Source of the DNA: Escherichia phage Baret
Strand: one strand, 5' to 3'
Sequence record: OR896834.1
Length of the DNA stretch: 64,000 bases
Below are positions 8,318 to 53,012 of the stretch, piece by piece (within the stretch, counting starts at the first letter, position 1; every line of letters begins with the position of its first letter). The notes under the pieces are model-generated. The model was not told where the DNA came from and searched no databases. It saw only the letters and a program-made list of their open reading frames with translations. Made by a program: the position numbers and the translations under genes.

Positions 8318-8346
8318 ATTATAGCAAGTATTTAAGCATTTAGCAA
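8318..8346 (-). promoter_or_regulatory. sigma70 promoter (TTGCTA-17-TATAAT) for ligase C-terminal gene
   Basis: Minus strand reads ttgcta...17 nt...tataat followed by atttatataaattgataagg and ATG. Confidence 0.7.
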
Positions 8347-22114: not shown

Positions 22115-24445
22115 ATGAGCCATCGCATTGAAAAAGTAATTAAACGTGACGGTACTGTAGAAGACTTTGCTCCTGAAAAACTCAATGGTTGGGCAGAGTA
22201 TGGTTGCAAAACAGTTGATGTAAGTTGGTCAGCCATTACTATGGCTGCTCAAAAAACTCTGCCTAAGGGGGTTGTAGATTCCGACACTCTGATGGACGCA
22301 TTAATTAAAGCTGCTGAAAGTCTTATCAAAGATAACCCAGCATACGATGTGCCAGCAAAGGAATTACGTCTTGCGCAAATGCGTAAACGCCTTTACGACT
22401 CTTTCGAACCACCTTCTCTACGCTTCTTCCATGACCATATGGTTAGCGTAGGTGCATGGGAAGACATGAGTGCATGGATTACCGATGAGCAGTTCGAAGC
22501 TCTGAATCAGGTTATCGACCATGATCGTGACCGTCTTTTTACTAGTGGTGGACTGAAACAGTTCTTTGATAAGTATTCCCGTCGTAACATAGCCACTGGT
22601 GAAATTTATGAAACTCCGCAGTTTGCCTACATGGGTATGGCAATGGCGATGTTATCTCAACCTAGCTGGACAATTCTAGATGCAATCGACCTCTACAACG
22701 CAATGTCACTCCACAAAATCAACGTTCCTACGCCGCCACTGGTTGGTCTGCGCTCTAGTGACCGTGGATTTGCTAGTTGCTGCCTCGTGGATTCCACTGA
22801 CACGTTGGATTCAATCGACACCGCCGAGCACATCGTCTTCAAAATGGTCGCAGCCAGAGCGGGAATCGGGTATCATCTTGAAAGCCGATCAATTGCTGAT
22901 CCGGTGCGAAATGGGGCATTCCCGCATTCCGGAAAACTGCCATATTATCGACACATTGACCGCTCAGTAAAGGCCAATACTCAGCAAACTCGTGGTGGTT
23001 CTGCCACAGTGTCTTATCCGTACTTCGACCCTGAAATCATTCAATTGATGCAGGTTAAGCAACAACGTGCTACAGATGAGAATAAAATCGATAAGATGGA
23101 TTATTCTCTGAGCTTTAACAATCTTTTGTTAAAACGTTATCTTAAAAACGAAGATATTACGCTAATGTCATACTTCTATGCTCCAGAAGTTCATGAAGCG
23201 TTTTATAGTGATGACGAGGCTAAATTTGAAGAAATCTACGTGGCAGCGGAGAAACGTGTGGCATCTCTTACAAAGATCGACCACGAAGGAAAAACAGTTC
23301 CAGCAGCTCCTAAAGTCTCTGCAAAAGAAATCCTAGATACTTGGCTACGTATCCGAATGGAAACAGGACGTATGTATGCGCATCACATCGGGGAATCTAA
23401 TCGTCACGGTAATTTCCTTGATCCGATCCGTATGACAAACCTTTGTGTTGAGATTACTCAGCCTACACGCCCGTTCCACCATATCACGGAACTGTATAAA
23501 ACAAAAGAACAACTTGATCAAATGAAGCCGGAGGATATTGGTGAAGTATCTCTGTGTAACTTAGGTGGTGTTGTACTTGGACGCATGGAATCTCTGGCTG
23601 AGTGGGAAAAAACTTGCTACATCCTCCTGAAATTCGTTGATACAATTATTGAAATCCAGGATTATCCGTTCCCAACTATGGAATATACGGCTAAGAAACG
23701 TCGTAATGTTGGTATTGGACTGATGAACGCAGCAGGTGCAATGGCAGCAGAAGGTCTGGCTTATGAAGGTATTGAAGCCCGTAACTGGATTCACCGTGAG
23801 GCTGAAAAACTGTCTTACTTCCTGCATAAAGCCTCTGTACGCCTAGCTAAAGAACAGGGTGCATGTGAGTGGTTTGATCGTACTAAACCATCTAAAGGAA
23901 TTCTGGTAATCGACACGTACAAGAAAACTGTTGATGAGCTGGTATCCGTAGGTCTAGAAATGGATTGGGAGTCTCTACGTGCAGATATTCTGAAATATGG
24001 TATGCGTAACTCTGTTCTGACTGCTCAGATGCCGGGAGAAAGTTCTTCTGTTCTGTTAGGTGTTACTAACTCTATTGAACCACCTCGTAAGATTGTATCT
24101 ATCAAGGGTAGTGCAGTAAATAAAGTAATTGCAATTGCTCCAGGTGCAACCGATTGGGAAACGTTAATGAGCTATAAACTGGCCTATGATGTAGATCGTA
24201 TCGAGTGGATCAAGTGGGTAGCAACTATGCAGAAATTCTTCAGTCAGTCTATCAGTACTAATATGTACTATGACTACACCAAGTTTGAGAATGAAATCAT
24301 TCCTGGCCCAGTAGTAGTTCGTGATTTCATGACTGCTGTTAAGTATGGGTGGAAAACTTGGTATTATGCTAACTTCAATACCGCAAATGGTGGAGGTGCT
24401 GGAGAAGAAGCAGCCGGTTGTGCATCCGGTGGTTGTACTATTTAA
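22115..24445 (+). CDS. nrdA: ribonucleoside-diphosphate reductase large subunit (class Ia)
   Basis: 776 aa from ATG with AAGGAAAG RBS; ATP-cone N-terminus and C-terminal Cys pair CASGGC typical of NrdA. Confidence 0.88.
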   Translation: MSHRIEKVIKRDGTVEDFAPEKLNGWAEYGCKTVDVSWSAITMAAQKTLPKGVVDSDTLMDALIKAAESLIKDNPAYDVPAKELRLAQMRKRLYDSFEPPSLRFFHDHMVSVGAWEDMSAWITDEQFEALNQVIDHDRDRLFTSGGLKQFFDKYSRRNIATGEIYETPQFAYMGMAMAMLSQPSWTILDAIDLYNAMSLHKINVPTPPLVGLRSSDRGFASCCLVDSTDTLDSIDTAEHIVFKMVAARAGIGYHLESRSIADPVRNGAFPHSGKLPYYRHIDRSVKANTQQTRGGSATVSYPYFDPEIIQLMQVKQQRATDENKIDKMDYSLSFNNLLLKRYLKNEDITLMSYFYAPEVHEAFYSDDEAKFEEIYVAAEKRVASLTKIDHEGKTVPAAPKVSAKEILDTWLRIRMETGRMYAHHIGESNRHGNFLDPIRMTNLCVEITQPTRPFHHITELYKTKEQLDQMKPEDIGEVSLCNLGGVVLGRMESLAEWEKTCYILLKFVDTIIEIQDYPFPTMEYTAKKRRNVGIGLMNAAGAMAAEGLAYEGIEARNWIHREAEKLSYFLHKASVRLAKEQGACEWFDRTKPSKGILVIDTYKKTVDELVSVGLEMDWESLRADILKYGMRNSVLTAQMPGESSSVLLGVTNSIEPPRKIVSIKGSAVNKVIAIAPGATDWETLMSYKLAYDVDRIEWIKWVATMQKFFSQSISTNMYYDYTKFENEIIPGPVVVRDFMTAVKYGWKTWYYANFNTANGGGAGEEAAGCASGGCTI

Positions 24446-24454
24446 TAAAAACAA

Positions 24455-24478
24455 GGAGATCTTCGGGTCTCCTTTTTC
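24455..24478 (+). terminator. Rho-independent terminator
   Basis: GGAGATC-ttcg-GGTCTCC hairpin followed by TTTTTC. Confidence 0.65.
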
Positions 24479-24491
24479 TTTGAAATTTTAC

Positions 24492-24520
24492 TTGCTAATC
24501 GCTACCAGATTTGCTATAAT
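24492..24520 (+). promoter_or_regulatory. sigma70 promoter (TTGCTA-17-TATAAT) for nrdB
   Basis: ttgctaatcgctaccagatttgctataat. Confidence 0.65.
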
Positions 24521-27066: not shown

Positions 27067-27071
27067 CTCAA

Positions 27072-27098
27072 ATAGCCCTTCGGGGCTATTATATTTAA
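27072..27098 (+). terminator. Rho-independent terminator
   Basis: ATAGCCC-ttcg-GGGCTAT hairpin followed by TATATTT. Confidence 0.7.
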
Positions 27099-27105
27099 AT
27101 TTCAT

Positions 27106-27134
27106 TTGCTTACTGAGTGAAATTTAGATATAAT
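27106..27134 (+). promoter_or_regulatory. sigma70 promoter (TTGCTT-17-TATAAT)
   Basis: ttgcttactgagtgaaatttagatataat. Confidence 0.65.
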
Positions 27135-33299: not shown

Positions 33300-34090
33300 A
33301 GCGAGCCGATTACGCTGAACTTGTCTTAATGTAAGATGCGTCAAGCACTAAGATTCGTTGAATAGAGTCGGTGGGTTAGTTGTAAAACTAGTACACAGGG
33401 GGCGGCAATCCCGGTTAGTGGCTAGAACGTGTAAAATGAGGCGTCTGAAACCTCTCCCCTAAACTCTTCTCTAATTTATAAATAGTGGGGTGTGGAAATC
33501 ACTTATGTAGTAACACTGCCGTCCTAGTATAATTGGTATTATCAAGCCGTAACTGGTGGAAGATGTAGGTTCGAATCCTACGGTCGGTAAGAACTGGATA
33601 ACTGATGCTTTTAACGTAAAAGCTTCCGAGGTTAGTTGCGCACTGCCTAAACCACGCGGTAGTTGGTTCCAGACTAACCAACCAGTCTGCTGAATAGTTT
33701 TATTACGATTTAACTATGCCCAGGCTAAAGAAGAACTTTAGAAGGTATTCTAGGGTAGTGAAGTTCTTTCTCCATATCGGAGTAGTTTTTCAAGCTATCC
33801 ACAAAGTGGGAAATGCTGACATGAGAGATGTCACTAATGGTGCACAATAGCACAGGTAATTCGCGATAACTCCTGTTGAGTAGCAGCAAAAGGTGGGAAG
33901 TCATGACCCCAAGCCTAACCGAGTCCTCAATATACCGCAGGACATAACCACTAAGTCACCCTGACTTAAACTGGAAAATAATAGACGTTACCGTATTTTG
34001 TCTTGAAATACTTAATGAGTGAGACTTATGACTCTCCCGGTATCGTCTGTATTTTTAAGAGTTTTTACGAGAGTTCTTAAAAATACTTAA
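33300..34090 (+). other. ORF-free structured region (candidate noncoding RNAs) upstream of tRNA-Arg
   Basis: No ORF of 60 aa or more; stacked hairpins (GTTGGTT/AACCAAC, AAGAACTT/AAGTTCTT, TTTTTAAGA/TCTTAAAAA); DnaA-box-like CTATCCACA. Confidence 0.3.
33518..33589 (+). pseudogene. tRNA-like element (degenerate)
   Basis: Canonical T-arm GTAGG-TTCGAAT-CCTAC and 6/7 acceptor pairing, but no convincing anticodon arm. Confidence 0.25.
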
Positions 34091-35879: not shown

Positions 35880-35957
35880 GGTTCTCAAGCTCATATGGTA
35901 TGAGCACCCGGCTCATAACCGGAAGGTACGTAGGTTCGAATCCTCGGGGAGCCACCA
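35880..35957 (+). tRNA. tRNA with CAU anticodon (Met/Ile2-type), CCA encoded
   Basis: Acceptor GGTTCTC/GGGAGCC, D-arm GCTC...GAGC, anticodon loop CTCATAA; T-stem has mismatches. Confidence 0.5.
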
Positions 35958-36662: not shown

Positions 36663-36692
36663 TTGCCTTTTGCCTTAAATTTCTGATATAAT
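36663..36692 (+). promoter_or_regulatory. sigma70 promoter (TTGCCT-18-TATAAT)
   Basis: acttgccttttgccttaaatttctgatataat. Confidence 0.6.
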
Positions 36693-36722: not shown

Positions 36723-36998
36723 ATGCAAAATCGTGTTGTAGCAACTGGTATTGAAAGTGCAATCTGTAAATCCTGGGAAGGCTGGGAAGGTGAGATTGAA
36801 TGGCTTTATTTCTATGATGTAGAACTTCTACCGGAAGTTAAAGCTAAATGTATTGAAGCTGGCATGGCTCCAGATGCAAAAGCTGATATTGATATTTTAA
36901 TGTCTGAACTTAAAGGTCGTGTAGTTACCGTTAGTAATGAGGGCGAAGAAGTTTTCGAACTTCCATTTTCCTTAACTGTCACTCCTAAGTTCGACTAA
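36723..36998 (+). CDS. hypothetical protein (91 aa)
   Basis: Track ORF, GGAGGAG RBS. Confidence 0.5.
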   Translation: MQNRVVATGIESAICKSWEGWEGEIEWLYFYDVELLPEVKAKCIEAGMAPDAKADIDILMSELKGRVVTVSNEGEEVFELPFSLTVTPKFD

Positions 36999-37006
36999 CT
37001 AATACA

Positions 37007-37045
37007 GCACTGAGCAAGTTCTTTAAAATTTGACTTGCTCAGTGC
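37007..37045. repeat. 12-bp perfect inverted repeat enclosing the -35 of the next promoter
   Basis: GCACTGAGCAAG (37007-18) and CTTGCTCAGTGC (37034-45). Confidence 0.6.
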
Positions 37046-37063
37046 CTTAAAACTTGATATAAT
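37035..37063 (+). promoter_or_regulatory. sigma70 promoter (TTGCTC-17-TATAAT) for tRNA unit
   Basis: ttgctcagtgccttaaaacttgatataat. Confidence 0.6.
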
Positions 37064-37079
37064 AGTTATCTAATTCGGA

Positions 37080-37129
37080 AACATATTTAAAAGTGTTTAA
37101 ACTAGTATTTGAATACTTTTAAATATGTT
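37080..37129. repeat. 15-bp perfect inverted repeat (leader hairpin) abutting tRNA-Tyr 5' end
   Basis: AACATATTTAAAAGT (37080-94) and ACTTTTAAATATGTT (37115-29), 20-nt spacer containing GTTTAAAC. Confidence 0.7.
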
Positions 37130-37217
37130 GGATTAGTATCGTAGAGGTAGCGAAGCAGACTGTAAATCTGCCGACTCGGAAGGGTCTCGGGTGGTTCGAC
37201 TCCATCATCCAACACCA
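37127..37217 (+). tRNA. tRNA-Tyr (anticodon GUA), type II, CCA encoded
   Basis: Acceptor GTTGGAT/ATCCAAC, anticodon arm GCAGA-CTGTAAA-TCTGC, long variable arm, T-arm GGTGG-TTCGACT-CCATC. Confidence 0.8.
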
Positions 37218-37301: not shown

Positions 37302-37310
37302 ATTAATAAT

Positions 37311-37381
37311 TGGGGTACGCATAGGTTGCAAATGGGCCTCCAAAACCCATGAAAAGGTTTCGAATACCTTTACCCCTGCCA
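37311..37381 (+). tRNA. tRNA, probable Trp (anticodon CCA), CCA encoded
   Basis: T-arm AAGGT-TTCGAAT-ACCTT, acceptor TGGGGTA/TACCCCT (1:72 mismatch), anticodon loop CTCCAAA with 4-bp stem. Confidence 0.45.
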
Positions 37382-37387
37382 AAATTT

Positions 37388-41823: not shown

Positions 41824-41918
41824 GGTAGGTCAATCCAACGGCTGGCGCTGGACTCCGACTTGAAATCGGTTGATCGTAGTGATACGGTGTAAGGGTTCGA
41901 TCCCCTTACCTACCTCCA
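41824..41918 (+). tRNA. tRNA-Ser (anticodon UGA), type II, CCA encoded
   Basis: Acceptor GGTAGGT/ACCTACC, anticodon loop CTTGAAA, long variable arm, T-arm AAGGG-TTCGATC-CCCTT. Confidence 0.7.
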
Positions 41919-47527: not shown

Positions 47528-47571
47528 GATTGATACTAAATCAACTTACTAGCAAAAGCAAATAATGACAA

Positions 47572-47607
47572 AGCCCAGCCTGCACTTTTGCGACTGGGCT
47601 ATTTTTA
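47572..47607 (+). terminator. Rho-independent terminator
   Basis: AGCCCAG...CTGGGCT hairpin followed by ATTTTTAT. Confidence 0.7.
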
Positions 47608-47621
47608 TAATAAAATTTTAA

Positions 47622-47650
47622 TTGCTTAGATGCCCAAACTTTTGTATAAT
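47622..47650 (+). promoter_or_regulatory. sigma70 promoter (TTGCTT-17-TATAAT)
   Basis: ttgcttagatgcccaaacttttgtataat. Confidence 0.65.
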
Positions 47651-52948: not shown

Positions 52949-52980
52949 AAGCCTGATCTTAGCGGATCAGGCTTTTATTT
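52949..52980 (+). terminator. Rho-independent terminator
   Basis: AGCCTGATC-ttagcg-GATCAGGCT followed by TTTTATTTT. Confidence 0.8.
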
Positions 52981-52983
52981 TAC

Positions 52984-53012
52984 TTGCTTTTTGCTAAAAA
53001 TTTTGGTATAAT
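52984..53012 (+). promoter_or_regulatory. sigma70 promoter (TTGCTT-17-TATAAT)
   Basis: ttgctttttgctaaaaattttggtataat. Confidence 0.65.

What the first reader, a model, noticed from the sequence alone, without database searches (positions are those of the whole stretch)
37007..37129. Nested inverted repeats around a tRNA promoter and the 5' end of tRNA-Tyr
A 12-bp perfect inverted repeat encloses the -35 hexamer, and a 15-bp perfect inverted repeat lies in the leader, overlapping the first 3 nt of tRNA-Tyr. Perfect repeats of this length in a ~61% A+T genome are unlikely by chance; they could be an operator, a terminator/antiterminator switch, or an RNase processing determinant.
Basis: seen in the sequence. 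Interest (0 to 1): 0.5.

Follow-up and report, generated by a model that had tools for sequence, protein, structure and literature searches.

The report
Hairpins flanking a phage tRNA-Tyr promoter
Two real, conserved RNA hairpins bracket the already known strong promoter of the tRNA-Tyr operon of a T5-like phage: one closes the upstream message, and the other folds the whole tRNA leader into a 20-bp stem that ends exactly where RNase P must cut, which is modestly interesting rather than a new kind of system.

Summary
The window is a T5-like phage, 99.8% identical to vB_Eco_mar004NP2. Both repeats are real. IR1 is 37007-37019/37033-37045 (13 bp perfect). IR2 is 37080-37094/37115-37129 (15 bp perfect; 22 bp counting two G·U pairs). 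They are the two longest perfect inverted repeats in the 64 kb, and they lie side by side, not nested.

Between them sits T5 early promoter P14a: -35 TTGCTC inside the 3' arm of IR1, TG-extended -10 at 37058-37063. The SP15 homologue of this cassette was shown to drive strong expression and to yield functional tRNAs.

IR1 shows compensatory changes with G·U intermediates, so it acts as RNA on the + strand, in read-through transcripts of the upstream gene.

IR2 is the basal stem of the tRNA-Tyr leader. Relatives carry three leader forms (about 56, 118 and 128 nt). Each has a 19-20 bp stem starting near +12 and ending at -1/+1 of tRNA-Tyr, while the tRNA gene varies widely. The arrangement resembles T5's annotated "stable RNAs" such as RNAIII and RNAX.

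Best reading: end-defining, protective RNA hairpins around RNase P processing. RNase III processing or RNase P gating remain possible. An operator or a terminator/antiterminator switch is not supported. No RNA ends were mapped, so function is inferred.

The parts
36723..36998 (+). Upstream ORF (91 aa, homologue of T5.072/ORF trn 2.5). Its stop codon TAA 36996-36998 lies 8 nt before IR1. It is transcribed from promoter P15c (about 36663-36692).
   Evidence: ORF list; annotations of relatives; promoter scan.
37007..37019 (+). IR1 5' arm (GCACTGAGCAAGT). This is the only part of IR1 that is not also a standard promoter element.
   Evidence: covariation with the 3' arm.
37020..37032 (+). IR1 loop (TCTTTAAAATTTG). 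It is the A/T-rich block found upstream of the -35 in other T5-type promoters of the window (UP-element-like).
   Evidence: Comparison of 17 promoters in the window.
37033..37045 (+). IR1 3' arm (ACTTGCTCAGTGC). It contains the -35 hexamer TTGCTC (37035-37040) of promoter P14a.
   Evidence: AKFV33 promoter feature maps to window 37035-37064.
37035..37063 (+). Promoter P14a: -35 TTGCTC, 17-bp spacer, TG at 37055-37056, -10 TATAAT at 37058-37063. The transcription start is inferred at about 37070 +/-2.
   Evidence: Pattern TTGCTNAGTG-N13-TATAAT matches with 0 mismatches; the family has 13 matches against 0.25 expected. Annotated P14a in T5 and phage 5. The SP15 homologue is experimentally strong (PMC11555353).
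37070..37079 (+). Conserved initial transcribed region (CTAATTCGGA), shared with other T5-type promoters.
   Evidence: Alignments.
37080..37101 (+). IR2 5' arm. C37082-A37101 form the 20-bp basal stem of the tRNA-Tyr leader.
37102..37107 (+). IR2 loop (CTAGTA). In relatives with the long leader forms this is the place where 60-70 nt of extra structured RNA sits.
37108..37129 (+). IR2 3' arm. It covers leader positions -19 to -1 and tRNA-Tyr nt +1 to +3. The RNase P site lies between T37126 and G37127.
37127..37217 (+). tRNA-Tyr (GTA), first gene of the Tyr-Glu-(Trp)-Phe cluster.
   Evidence: ARAGORN; Rfam.
34049..34086 (+). Analogous A/U-rich 17-bp hairpin ending 5 nt before tRNA-Arg. It is the 3' end of the homologue of T5 'RNAX', and it is homologous to the hairpin abutting tRNA-Tyr in Klebsiella phage KPN4.

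Best explanation
The segment is the junction between two early transcription units of a T5-like phage. It contains the known sigma-70 promoter P14a and two hairpins that act as RNA on the + strand.

IR1 lies in the 3' untranslated tail of the upstream gene (T5.072 homologue) and is made only in transcripts that read through from promoter P15c. Its loop and 3' arm are also the A/T-rich block and the -35 region of P14a. Only the 5' arm is an added element. It most likely gives the upstream message a protected 3' end, as an exonuclease barrier and at most a weak terminator. It sits where other T5 promoters in this window have a canonical terminator.

IR2 is the 20-22 bp basal stem of the leader of the transcript that starts at P14a. 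It folds the leader from about +11 to position -1 (plus G+1) into one closed hairpin. RNase P cleavage at tRNA-Tyr +1 would then release a self-contained hairpin RNA with a blunt 3' end, about 56 nt here and 118-128 nt in relatives. On read-through transcripts the same cleavage would leave the upstream mRNA with that hairpin at its 3' end. This mirrors T5's annotated 'stable RNAs' that abut tRNA genes.

Shown: the repeats, their conservation, the + strand RNA signature, the three leader forms, promoter identity, and the activity of the homologous SP15 cassette. Inferred: the transcription start, RNase P cleavage at the helix end, accumulation of the leader RNA, and the protective role.
For: - Promoter: P14a is annotated at the homologous place in T5, phage 5 and AKFV33. 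It belongs to a family of 13 sites in the window against 0.25 expected.
- Published test: the 'phage tRNA-Tyr promoter' cassette of SP15 in Azam et al. 2024 is exactly IR1 + P14a + the IR2 leader up to -1. Fused to heterologous tRNA-Tyr, tRNA-Lys or RFP it gave strong expression and functional tRNAs.
- IR1 as RNA: 96.8% of cells are paired. Three pairs change on both sides (C-G to U-A, A-U to G-C, G-C to U-A), with U·G and G·U intermediates that pair only in the + strand. The Proteus phage M4H10_20 ligB promoter has the same design, with a promoter about 60 nt upstream.
- Position of IR1: four other T5-type promoters in the window have a canonical terminator directly upstream.
- IR2: the + strand fold is -22.9 kcal/mol against -14.1 for the - strand, and + was more stable than - in all 16 variants.
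- Three leader forms share a 19-20 bp basal stem that starts near +12 and ends at -1/+1 of tRNA-Tyr. The long form differs from the short by a paired 5-bp insertion, GAATG/CATTC.
- The leader is conserved while the tRNA-Tyr gene has at least 8 alleles that reassort with the leader forms. It is also kept in DT57C and Gostya9, where the tRNA is degenerate.
- Precedents: T5 RNAX runs up to tRNA-Arg and ends in the hairpin homologous to window 34049-34086. T5 RNAIII, RNA2H and RNAIV fold with 5' and 3' ends paired, and the RNAIII stem ends 2-3 nt before tRNA-His. Klebsiella phage KPN4 tRNA-Tyr has a 17-bp hairpin ending at -1/-2.
- Rarity: among 17 operon-first tRNAs in the window, only Tyr (22 bp) and Arg (17 bp) have such long adjacent helices.
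Against: - No RNA ends were mapped. The transcription start and the RNase P product are inferred.
- Within the short-form alignment IR2 has no compensatory changes. Four stem sites changed to G·U and four sites are disrupted, and an A·C mismatch is present in 7 of 13 distinct sequences. That matches neutral expectation, so structural selection rests on the comparison across forms.
- The T5 record lists eight stable RNAs but none for the P14a leader.
- A leader paired up to -1 is expected to hinder E. coli RNase P. C5 protein binds single-stranded N(-3) to N(-6) (PMC5602109), and synthetic sequestor hairpins block cleavage (PMC7897497). Predicted probability that -1 to -6 are unpaired is mostly near zero; exceptions are 0.42 at -3 in L004 and the fully unpaired -5 (the A of the C·A mismatch) in T5.
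- IR1 has no U-tract and a large loop, so termination is doubtful. A protective role needs a downstream cleavage that has not been shown.
Confidence: 0.45

Rival explanations
1. IR2 is an RNase III processing stalk. The roughly two-turn dsRNA stem is cut by host RNase III. That leaves a short leader whose A/U-rich partner strand falls off, and only then does RNase P mature tRNA-Tyr.
For: The basal stem length is held at 19-22 bp in three otherwise different leader forms. A 5-bp insertion in the long form is offset by the loss of 5 apical pairs. A paired leader should block RNase P, yet the cassette yields functional tRNAs in E. coli, so some other step may open the stem. From my own knowledge, T4 species 1 RNA from the T4 tRNA cluster is cleaved by RNase III in vitro.
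Against: No cleavage data exist. RNase III antideterminant positions were not examined. A/U-only terminal pairs could simply fray to admit RNase P. The KPN4 and pre-tRNA-Arg hairpins are only 17 bp.
Confidence: 0.18
2. IR2 is a natural RNase P 'sequestor' that delays or gates 5' maturation of tRNA-Tyr. It would act as a timer, or as a reservoir of precursor that is opened by a phage or host factor.
For: The architecture matches the synthetic sequestor hairpin that blocks RNase P on E. coli supF tRNA-Tyr. In this window's allele the leader is also predicted to pair with acceptor nt +1 to +10, giving an acceptor-stem probability of about 0.01. tRNA-Tyr is an anti-defence tRNA under diversifying pressure.
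Against: The SP15 cassette gives functional tRNAs in uninfected E. coli without any phage factor. The leader-acceptor pairing is specific to one allele and absent from the other alleles. No alternative pairing partner for a switch was found.
Confidence: 0.1
3. IR1 is primarily a transcription terminator or insulator that stops read-through from P15c before it can occlude P14a.
For: It occupies the place where four other T5-type promoters in the window, and KPN4, have canonical terminators. The stem is stable at -22.8 kcal/mol. The covariation shows RNA-level selection.
Against: The tail is CUUAAAACUU with no U-tract, and the loop is 11-13 nt. The terminator scan did not call it. None of the relatives' records annotates it as a terminator.
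Confidence: 0.12
4. IR1 works at the DNA level, as an operator for a dimeric regulator or as a cruciform that modulates P14a.
For: It is a perfect palindrome overlapping the -35 and the upstream promoter region. The 5' arm lies at about -63 to -51, where activators or alpha-CTD bind (inference).
Against: Complementarity rather than sequence is conserved, through G·U intermediates that would be A·C mismatches on the other strand. Half-site centres are 26 bp apart, on opposite helix faces. The cassette is strongly active in uninfected E. coli.
Confidence: 0.07
5. The repeats have no function of their own. They are palindromic remnants of recombination or insertion events that hitch-hike with a conserved promoter.
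For: Substitutions within the short-form IR2 fit neutrality. The region is a recombination mosaic.
Against: Three different leader forms keep the same stem length and position. IR1 has compensatory changes. Analogous hairpins occur in other genera. The chance expectation is about 0.03 per window.
Confidence: 0.06

Closest known systems
T5 early promoter P14a and the T5 early-promoter family (consensus TTGCTT-N17/18-TATAATA)
   Same: The position after the T5.072 homologue and before tRNA-Tyr is the same. The hexamers, TG-extended -10, upstream A/T block and conserved initial transcribed region all match. P14a is annotated in T5, phage 5 and AKFV33, and the SP15 homologue is experimentally strong.
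   Different: None of the records or papers I read describes the complementary 5' arm (IR1) or the leader hairpin (IR2). Only this one of 17 promoters examined in the window has an upstream arm complementary to its -35 region.
T5 'stable RNAs with unknown functions' co-transcribed with tRNAs (RNAX, RNAIII, RNA2H, RNAIV)
   Same: They lie between a promoter or gene and a tRNA 5' end. They are closed structures whose 5' and 3' ends pair. The stem ends 2-6 nt (RNAIII, RNAX) or 0 nt (this leader) from the RNase P site.
   Different: The tRNA-Tyr leader is not annotated as a stable RNA, and its accumulation is untested. The short form is a bare 20-bp hairpin. No sequence similarity to those RNAs was found.
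Synthetic RNase P riboswitch 'sequestor hairpin' (Ender et al. 2021, PMC7897497)
   Same: The 3' strand of a hairpin is the proximal 5' leader of a tRNA-Tyr precursor, right up to the cleavage site.
   Different: The synthetic hairpin blocks processing until a ligand opens it. The phage leader has no aptamer, and the homologous cassette yields functional tRNA constitutively.
Phage T4 species 1 and 2 RNAs in the T4 tRNA cluster (from my own knowledge, not tested here)
   Same: They are structured non-tRNA RNAs co-transcribed and processed with phage tRNAs, with unknown function. Species 1 is an RNase III substrate in vitro.
   Different: The phage family is different, there is no sequence relation, and the T4 RNAs are longer with partly tRNA-like ends.
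Intrinsic terminators and 3' stabilising stem-loops at gene ends
   Same: IR1 is a stable stem-loop 8 nt after a stop codon, conserved at the RNA level.
   Different: It has no U-tract and an 11-13 nt loop, and half of it doubles as a promoter.

Membership tests
T5-type sigma-70 early promoter (P14a) | -35 close to TTGCTT, 17-18 bp spacer, -10 TATAAT(A) | tested here: met
   TTGCTC-N17-TATAATA at 37035-37064; the family pattern matches with 0 mismatches; it corresponds to the AKFV33 promoter feature.
T5-type sigma-70 early promoter (P14a) | A/T-rich block upstream of the -35 and conserved initial transcribed region | tested here: met
   TTTAAAATTT at 37023-37032 and CTAATTCGGAAA after the -10, as in the 16 other promoters examined in the window.
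T5-type sigma-70 early promoter (P14a) | Promoter activity shown by experiment | not testable with these tools
   Published for the 95%-identical SP15 cassette, which gives RFP above the E. coli tyrT/tyrV promoters (PMC11555353). Not tested for this exact sequence.
Intrinsic (rho-independent) terminator (IR1) | G+C-rich stem with a short loop (3-8 nt) | tested here: not met
   The stem is stable (13-14 bp, -22.8 kcal/mol) but the loop is 11-13 nt; not called by the scan.
Intrinsic (rho-independent) terminator (IR1 or IR2) | U-tract directly after the stem | tested here: not met
   IR1 is followed by CTTAAAACTT and IR2 by GGATTAGTAT.
Conserved RNA secondary structure (IR1) | Compensatory base changes that keep pairing | tested here: met
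   Three of 13 pairs change on both sides, with G·U intermediates. 96.8% of cells are paired against 25-42% for slid controls. The covariation score exceeds all 500 shuffles. Only 12 sequences were available.
Conserved RNA secondary structure (IR2) | Compensatory base changes that keep pairing | tested here: inconclusive
   No double changes occur within the short form. Across the three leader forms the 19-20 bp stem, its position and a paired 5-bp insertion are conserved.
T5 stable leader/spacer RNAs (RNAX, RNAIII, RNA2H type) | Non-tRNA RNA lying between a promoter or gene and a tRNA 5' end, with 5' and 3' ends paired | tested here: met
   The leader stem spans +11 to -1. The annotated T5 RNAs fold the same way. 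RNAX and RNAIII abut tRNA-Arg and tRNA-His.
T5 stable leader/spacer RNAs (RNAX, RNAIII, RNA2H type) | Accumulates as a discrete stable RNA in infected cells | not testable with these tools
   No RNA data were available. The T5 record annotates no such RNA for the P14a leader.
RNase III substrate | About two turns (around 20 bp) of dsRNA | tested here: met
   20-22 bp in the short form, 20 bp in the long form and 19-20 bp in form 3.
RNase III substrate | Cleavage by RNase III; no antideterminant base pairs | not tested
   No enzymatic data, and the antideterminant rules were not applied.
RNase P sequestor hairpin / riboswitch | Proximal leader (-1 to about -7) base-paired in a hairpin | tested here: met
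   Predicted probability that -1 to -6 are unpaired is 0.00 in the window precursor and at most 0.14 in most relatives. The exceptions are 0.42 at -3 in L004 and the fully unpaired -5 (mismatch A) in T5.
RNase P sequestor hairpin / riboswitch | Processing blocked until a ligand or factor opens the hairpin | tested here: inconclusive
   No aptamer or alternative pairing was found. The published cassette gives functional tRNAs without phage factors, which argues against a full block.
Palindromic operator for a dimeric DNA-binding protein (IR1) | Half-site sequence conserved; spacing that places both half-sites on one helix face | tested here: not met
   Half-site bases change in a compensatory way through G·U states. 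Centre-to-centre spacing is 26 bp.
Any Rfam family | Match to a curated covariance model | tested here: not met
   Only tRNA hits were found. Nothing matched in the short, long or form-3 leaders at E<=1.

The most novel reading that the evidence does not exclude
The flush leader helix is a processing checkpoint for an anti-defence tRNA. By hiding the RNase P site (and, in this window's allele, the acceptor 5' strand), it would make tRNA-Tyr maturation depend on a second step such as RNase III or a helicase. Alternatively the released 5'-triphosphate hairpin RNA could itself be a functional small RNA. Either way it would tune or protect the supply of the tRNA-Tyr that T5-like phages use against tRNA-Tyr-cleaving defences (retron-Eco7, Septu).
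Probability: 0.12. Interest if true: 0.65.

Novelty: new member of a known kind. Interest (0 to 1): 0.35.

Why it matters
The promoter-leader cassette containing both hairpins is already used as a portable strong driver for tRNAs. It controls the phage tRNA-Tyr that defeats retron-Eco7. If the leader helix really ends at the RNase P site and tRNA is still made efficiently, it is a natural counter-example to the rule that RNase P needs a single-stranded leader. That is directly testable in vitro. It would also add a minimal member to T5's long-unexplained set of stable non-tRNA RNAs. If the hairpins only stabilise RNA ends, the finding is ordinary housekeeping in a densely processed mRNA/tRNA region.

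Tried and rejected
- Rfam (E<=1) on the tRNA region and on loci carrying the long and form-3 leaders gave only tRNA hits.
- The terminator scan called neither hairpin.
- Literature searches for T5 transcript maps, leader or hairpin descriptions found nothing on these hairpins. They did turn up the SP15 cassette and RNase P leader requirements.
- The one metagenome scan returned only 8 loci and the IMG/VR scans about 24, so diversity is limited.
- Covariation within the short-form IR2 is absent.
- A search for paralogues of the long and form-3 inserts in the window and in T5 found none.
- Deriving the transcription start from the 75-bp 'promoter' features failed, because the T5 and phage 5 features are offset differently from the -10.
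- The pairing of leader CTAATTC with tRNA GGATTAG is specific to one tRNA allele and was judged incidental.
- Vibrio phage Chester shows no flush hairpin before any operon-first tRNA that ARAGORN called. Its annotated tRNA-Tyr was not called and has no upstream hairpin.
- TTGACT (37030-37035) was rejected as the -35 because of its 22-bp spacing to the -10.
- IR1-IR2 alternative pairing (pair I7, 79% over 14 nt) was rejected as a switch, because IR1 lies upstream of the P14a start.

Full report
**Identity of the window.** The 801 bases around the finding are 99.8% identical to Escherichia phage vB_Eco_mar004NP2. They match more than 300 Tequintavirus and Epseptimavirus genomes over most of their length. 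The window carries 22 ARAGORN tRNA genes at 34.0-44.0 kb, which is the T5 tRNA region.

**The observation.**
- IR1 is GCACTGAGCAAGT (37007-37019) / ACTTGCTCAGTGC (37033-37045): 13 bp perfect with a 13-nt loop.
- IR2 is 15 bp perfect (37080-37094 / 37115-37129). It extends to 22 bp (37080-37101 / 37108-37129, 6-nt loop) with two G-T oppositions.
- IR2 includes the first three nucleotides of tRNA-Tyr (37127-37217).
- In an exhaustive scan of the 64 kb for perfect inverted repeats with loops of 3-30 nt, these are the two longest. First-order Markov shuffles give 0.03 repeats of >=13 bp per window.
- Fold z-scores are -6.6 and -7.6.

**The promoter.**
- Relatives annotate a promoter exactly here: 'P14a' in T5 (AY543070) and Salmonella phage 5, and a T5-consensus promoter in AKFV33 that maps to window 37035-37064.
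- The sequence is TTGCTC-N17-TATAATA with a TG extension.
- The motif TTGCTNAGTG-N13-TATAAT occurs 13 times in the window (up to 2 mismatches) against 0.25 expected.
- The IR1 loop (TTTAAAATTT) is the A/T block that all these promoters have upstream of the -35. The IR1 3' arm is the -35 plus the first spacer bases. Only the 5' arm of IR1 is additional.
- Azam et al. 2024 (PMC11555353) used a 'phage tRNA-Tyr promoter' from the T5-like phage SP15. Their supplementary sequences show the cassette runs from CTAATATAGCACTGAGCAAG to CTTCTAAATAT, which is IR1, P14a and the whole IR2 leader up to position -1.
- Fused directly to tRNA-Tyr genes from T5, a Klebsiella phage and E. coli, and to phage tRNA-Lys, it rescued phages from retron-Eco7 or PrrC170. 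It also drove RFP more strongly than the E. coli tRNA-Tyr promoters.
- The promoter is therefore known and active. Neither hairpin acts as a strong terminator or attenuator, and a leader paired up to -1 is compatible with production of functional tRNA in uninfected E. coli.

**IR1.**
- Among 21 distinct homologous sequences, most are identical in the arms.
- One lineage reads GCATTGGGCAAGT/ACTTGCCCAATAC (C-G to T-A and A-T to G-C). Another has only the 5'-arm changes, which gives U·G and G·U. A third has both compensations plus a further U·G.
- On a 12-sequence alignment, 96.8% of cells pair, against 25-42% when partners are slid. Three of 13 pairs change on both sides, and no shuffle reaches the covariation score.
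- The intermediates pair only in + strand RNA, so selection acts on an RNA hairpin.
- That RNA exists only in transcripts that start upstream. Promoter P15c lies at about 36663-36692 and reads through the 91-codon ORF ending at 36998.
- A Proteus phage of another genus (Novosibvirus) has the same design at its ligase-B promoter: CTTAGCAAGT / 13-nt A/T loop / ACTTGCTAAG, with another promoter about 60 nt upstream.
- Four other T5-type promoters in the window (24492, 27106, 47622, 52984) have a canonical terminator immediately upstream.
- IR1 sits in the same place but has no U-tract and a large loop. I therefore read it as a 3'-end hairpin (exonuclease barrier, at best a weak terminator) that has become merged with the promoter.

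**IR2.**
- As + strand RNA the stem is 21-22 continuous pairs (-22.9 kcal/mol). The - strand gives -14.1 kcal/mol, with A·C mismatches.
- The homologous leaders come in three forms:
  - a short form of about 56 nt, as in this window;
  - a long form of about 118 nt, as in T5 itself;
  - a third form of about 128 nt, in Spc35, phiLLS and PHB06.
- All three begin with the same initial transcribed sequence. All form a 19-20 bp basal stem that starts near +12 and ends at -1/+1 of tRNA-Tyr. All 16 variants fold better on the + strand.
- The long form equals the short form plus a paired 5-bp insertion (GAATG in the 5' arm, CATTC in the 3' arm) and about 57 nt of extra apical structure.
- The third form has unrelated stem sequence but the same stem length and position.
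- Downstream, the tRNA-Tyr gene has at least eight very different alleles that reassort with the leader forms.
- In DT57C and Gostya9 the tRNA is degenerate, yet the promoter and both hairpins remain.
- Within the short form there is no covariation. The 5' arm is invariant, four sites changed to G·U, four sites are disrupted, and an A·C mismatch occurs in 7 of 13 distinct sequences. The case for structural selection therefore rests on the comparison across forms.

**Context in T5 biology.**
- The T5 record annotates eight 'stable RNAs with unknown functions' interleaved with tRNAs.
- RNAX (719 nt) runs from promoter P16-17 up to tRNA-Arg. RNAIII abuts tRNA-His. RNA2H starts after promoter P13b.
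- The third-longest perfect repeat of the window (34049-34086) is the 17-bp hairpin at the 3' end of the RNAX homologue, 5 nt before tRNA-Arg. It is identical in T5.
- When folded, RNAIII, RNA2H, RNAIV, RNAI, RNA2 and RNA3 all pair their 5' and 3' ends, leaving 2-5 nt 3' overhangs. The RNAIII stem ends 2-3 nt before tRNA-His.
- In Klebsiella phage KPN4 (Sugarlandvirus), tRNA-Tyr is preceded by a 17-bp hairpin ending at -1/-2. That hairpin is homologous to the T5 pre-tRNA-Arg hairpin, not to IR2.
- Among 17 operon-first tRNAs in the window, only Tyr and Arg have such long adjacent helices (Thr has 9 bp). Among 18 in KPN4, only Tyr does.
- A closed hairpin RNA lying against an RNase P site is thus an established, if unexplained, theme of this phage family. 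The tRNA-Tyr leader looks like its smallest member.

**Mechanism.**
- I infer that transcription starts near 37070 and that the leader folds into the closed hairpin.
- RNase P then cuts between T37126 and G37127. This releases a blunt-ended hairpin RNA, or leaves read-through T5.072 mRNA ending in that hairpin. In either case the end offers little hold for 3' exonucleases.
- The difficulty is that E. coli RNase P contacts single-stranded leader positions -1 to -6 (PMC5602109), and engineered sequestor hairpins block it (PMC7897497). Predicted unpaired probabilities for -1 to -6 are 0.00 in the window precursor and mostly at most 0.14 in relatives.
- Either the last seven A/U-rich pairs fray on enzyme binding, or another nuclease acts first. 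The constant length of about 20 bp makes RNase III the obvious candidate.
- These alternatives cannot be separated with sequence data.

**Comparison and novelty.**
- The promoter is already known.
- I found no description of the hairpins in the annotations or papers I could read.
- Both hairpins are of known kinds: a 3' UTR stem-loop, and a structured leader or stable RNA next to a phage tRNA.
- No Rfam family matches.
- I file the finding as a new member of a known kind. The interest is moderate and comes from the helix that ends exactly at the RNase P site of an anti-defence tRNA.

Noticed in passing
window 37127-37217 and homologous loci L001-L073: The tRNA-Tyr gene after the conserved leader is hypervariable in T5-like phages. 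At least 8 alleles were seen, with 5' ends GTTGGATT, GGGCGTTT, GGGGAAAT, GGGGGAGT, GGGGGATTGG, GAGGGATT, GCATCGTT and GTGGGAAT. They reassort freely with the three leader forms. This fits an arms race with tRNA-Tyr-cleaving defences such as retron-Eco7 and Septu.
   Followed up: partly
window 37310-37385: The tRNA-Trp (CCA) annotated between tRNA-Glu and tRNA-Phe in relatives is called here by neither ARAGORN nor Rfam. It may be degenerate in this phage.
   Followed up: no
window 35880-35954, 33518-33589, 41824-41914: Rfam finds tRNA or tRNA-like matches that ARAGORN missed. The first scores 40.3 bits, where relatives have tRNA-Ile2/Met (CAU). The second scores 35.5 bits, inside the RNAX-homologous region. 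The third is tRNA-Sec-like at 38.3 bits, below the gathering score.
   Followed up: no
window 34049-34086; L075 22800-22838: A 17-bp A/U-rich hairpin sits 5 nt before tRNA-Arg, at the 3' end of the homologue of T5 RNAX. It is homologous to the hairpin that abuts tRNA-Tyr in Klebsiella phage KPN4: same ends GTATTT...AAATAC, same ACGAGAG apex, and compensatory changes in between.
   Followed up: partly
L029 (DT57C) 1376-1470; L072 (Gostya9): In DT57C and Gostya9 the tRNA-Tyr is a degenerate or chimeric gene. Its first base is mutated and its 3' part reads CCTACACGGCCCGCCA, apparently from another tRNA. It is followed directly by RNA3, yet IR1, P14a and IR2 are retained.
   Followed up: partly
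window 24440-24520, 27070-27134, 47570-47650, 52950-53012: Four T5-type early promoters have a canonical intrinsic terminator whose T-tract runs straight into the promoter's upstream A/T block. This terminator-promoter junction recurs across the region.
   Followed up: partly
L060 (T5 26.5-34.2 kb): All annotated T5 stable RNAs (RNAI, RNAIII, RNAIV, RNA1, RNA2, RNA2H, RNA3) are predicted to pair their 5' and 3' ends. The stretch of the T5 record that I read lists RNAI, RNAIII and RNAIV but no RNAII.
   Followed up: partly
L058 770-898, L070, L071: The third leader form (Spc35, phiLLS, PHB06) contains GGCCCCCACCA, which resembles the 3' end of a tRNA (acceptor strand plus ACCA). It may be a remnant of a tRNA gene inside the leader.
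   Followed up: no
L055 (Proteus phage M4H10_20) 640-790: Tandem promoters sit upstream of DNA ligase subunit B, with an IR1-like hairpin (CTTAGCAAGT/ACTTGCTAAG) between them that overlaps the -35 of the second promoter. The T5-like window has no such hairpin at its own ligase-B promoter (8318-8346, - strand).
   Followed up: partly
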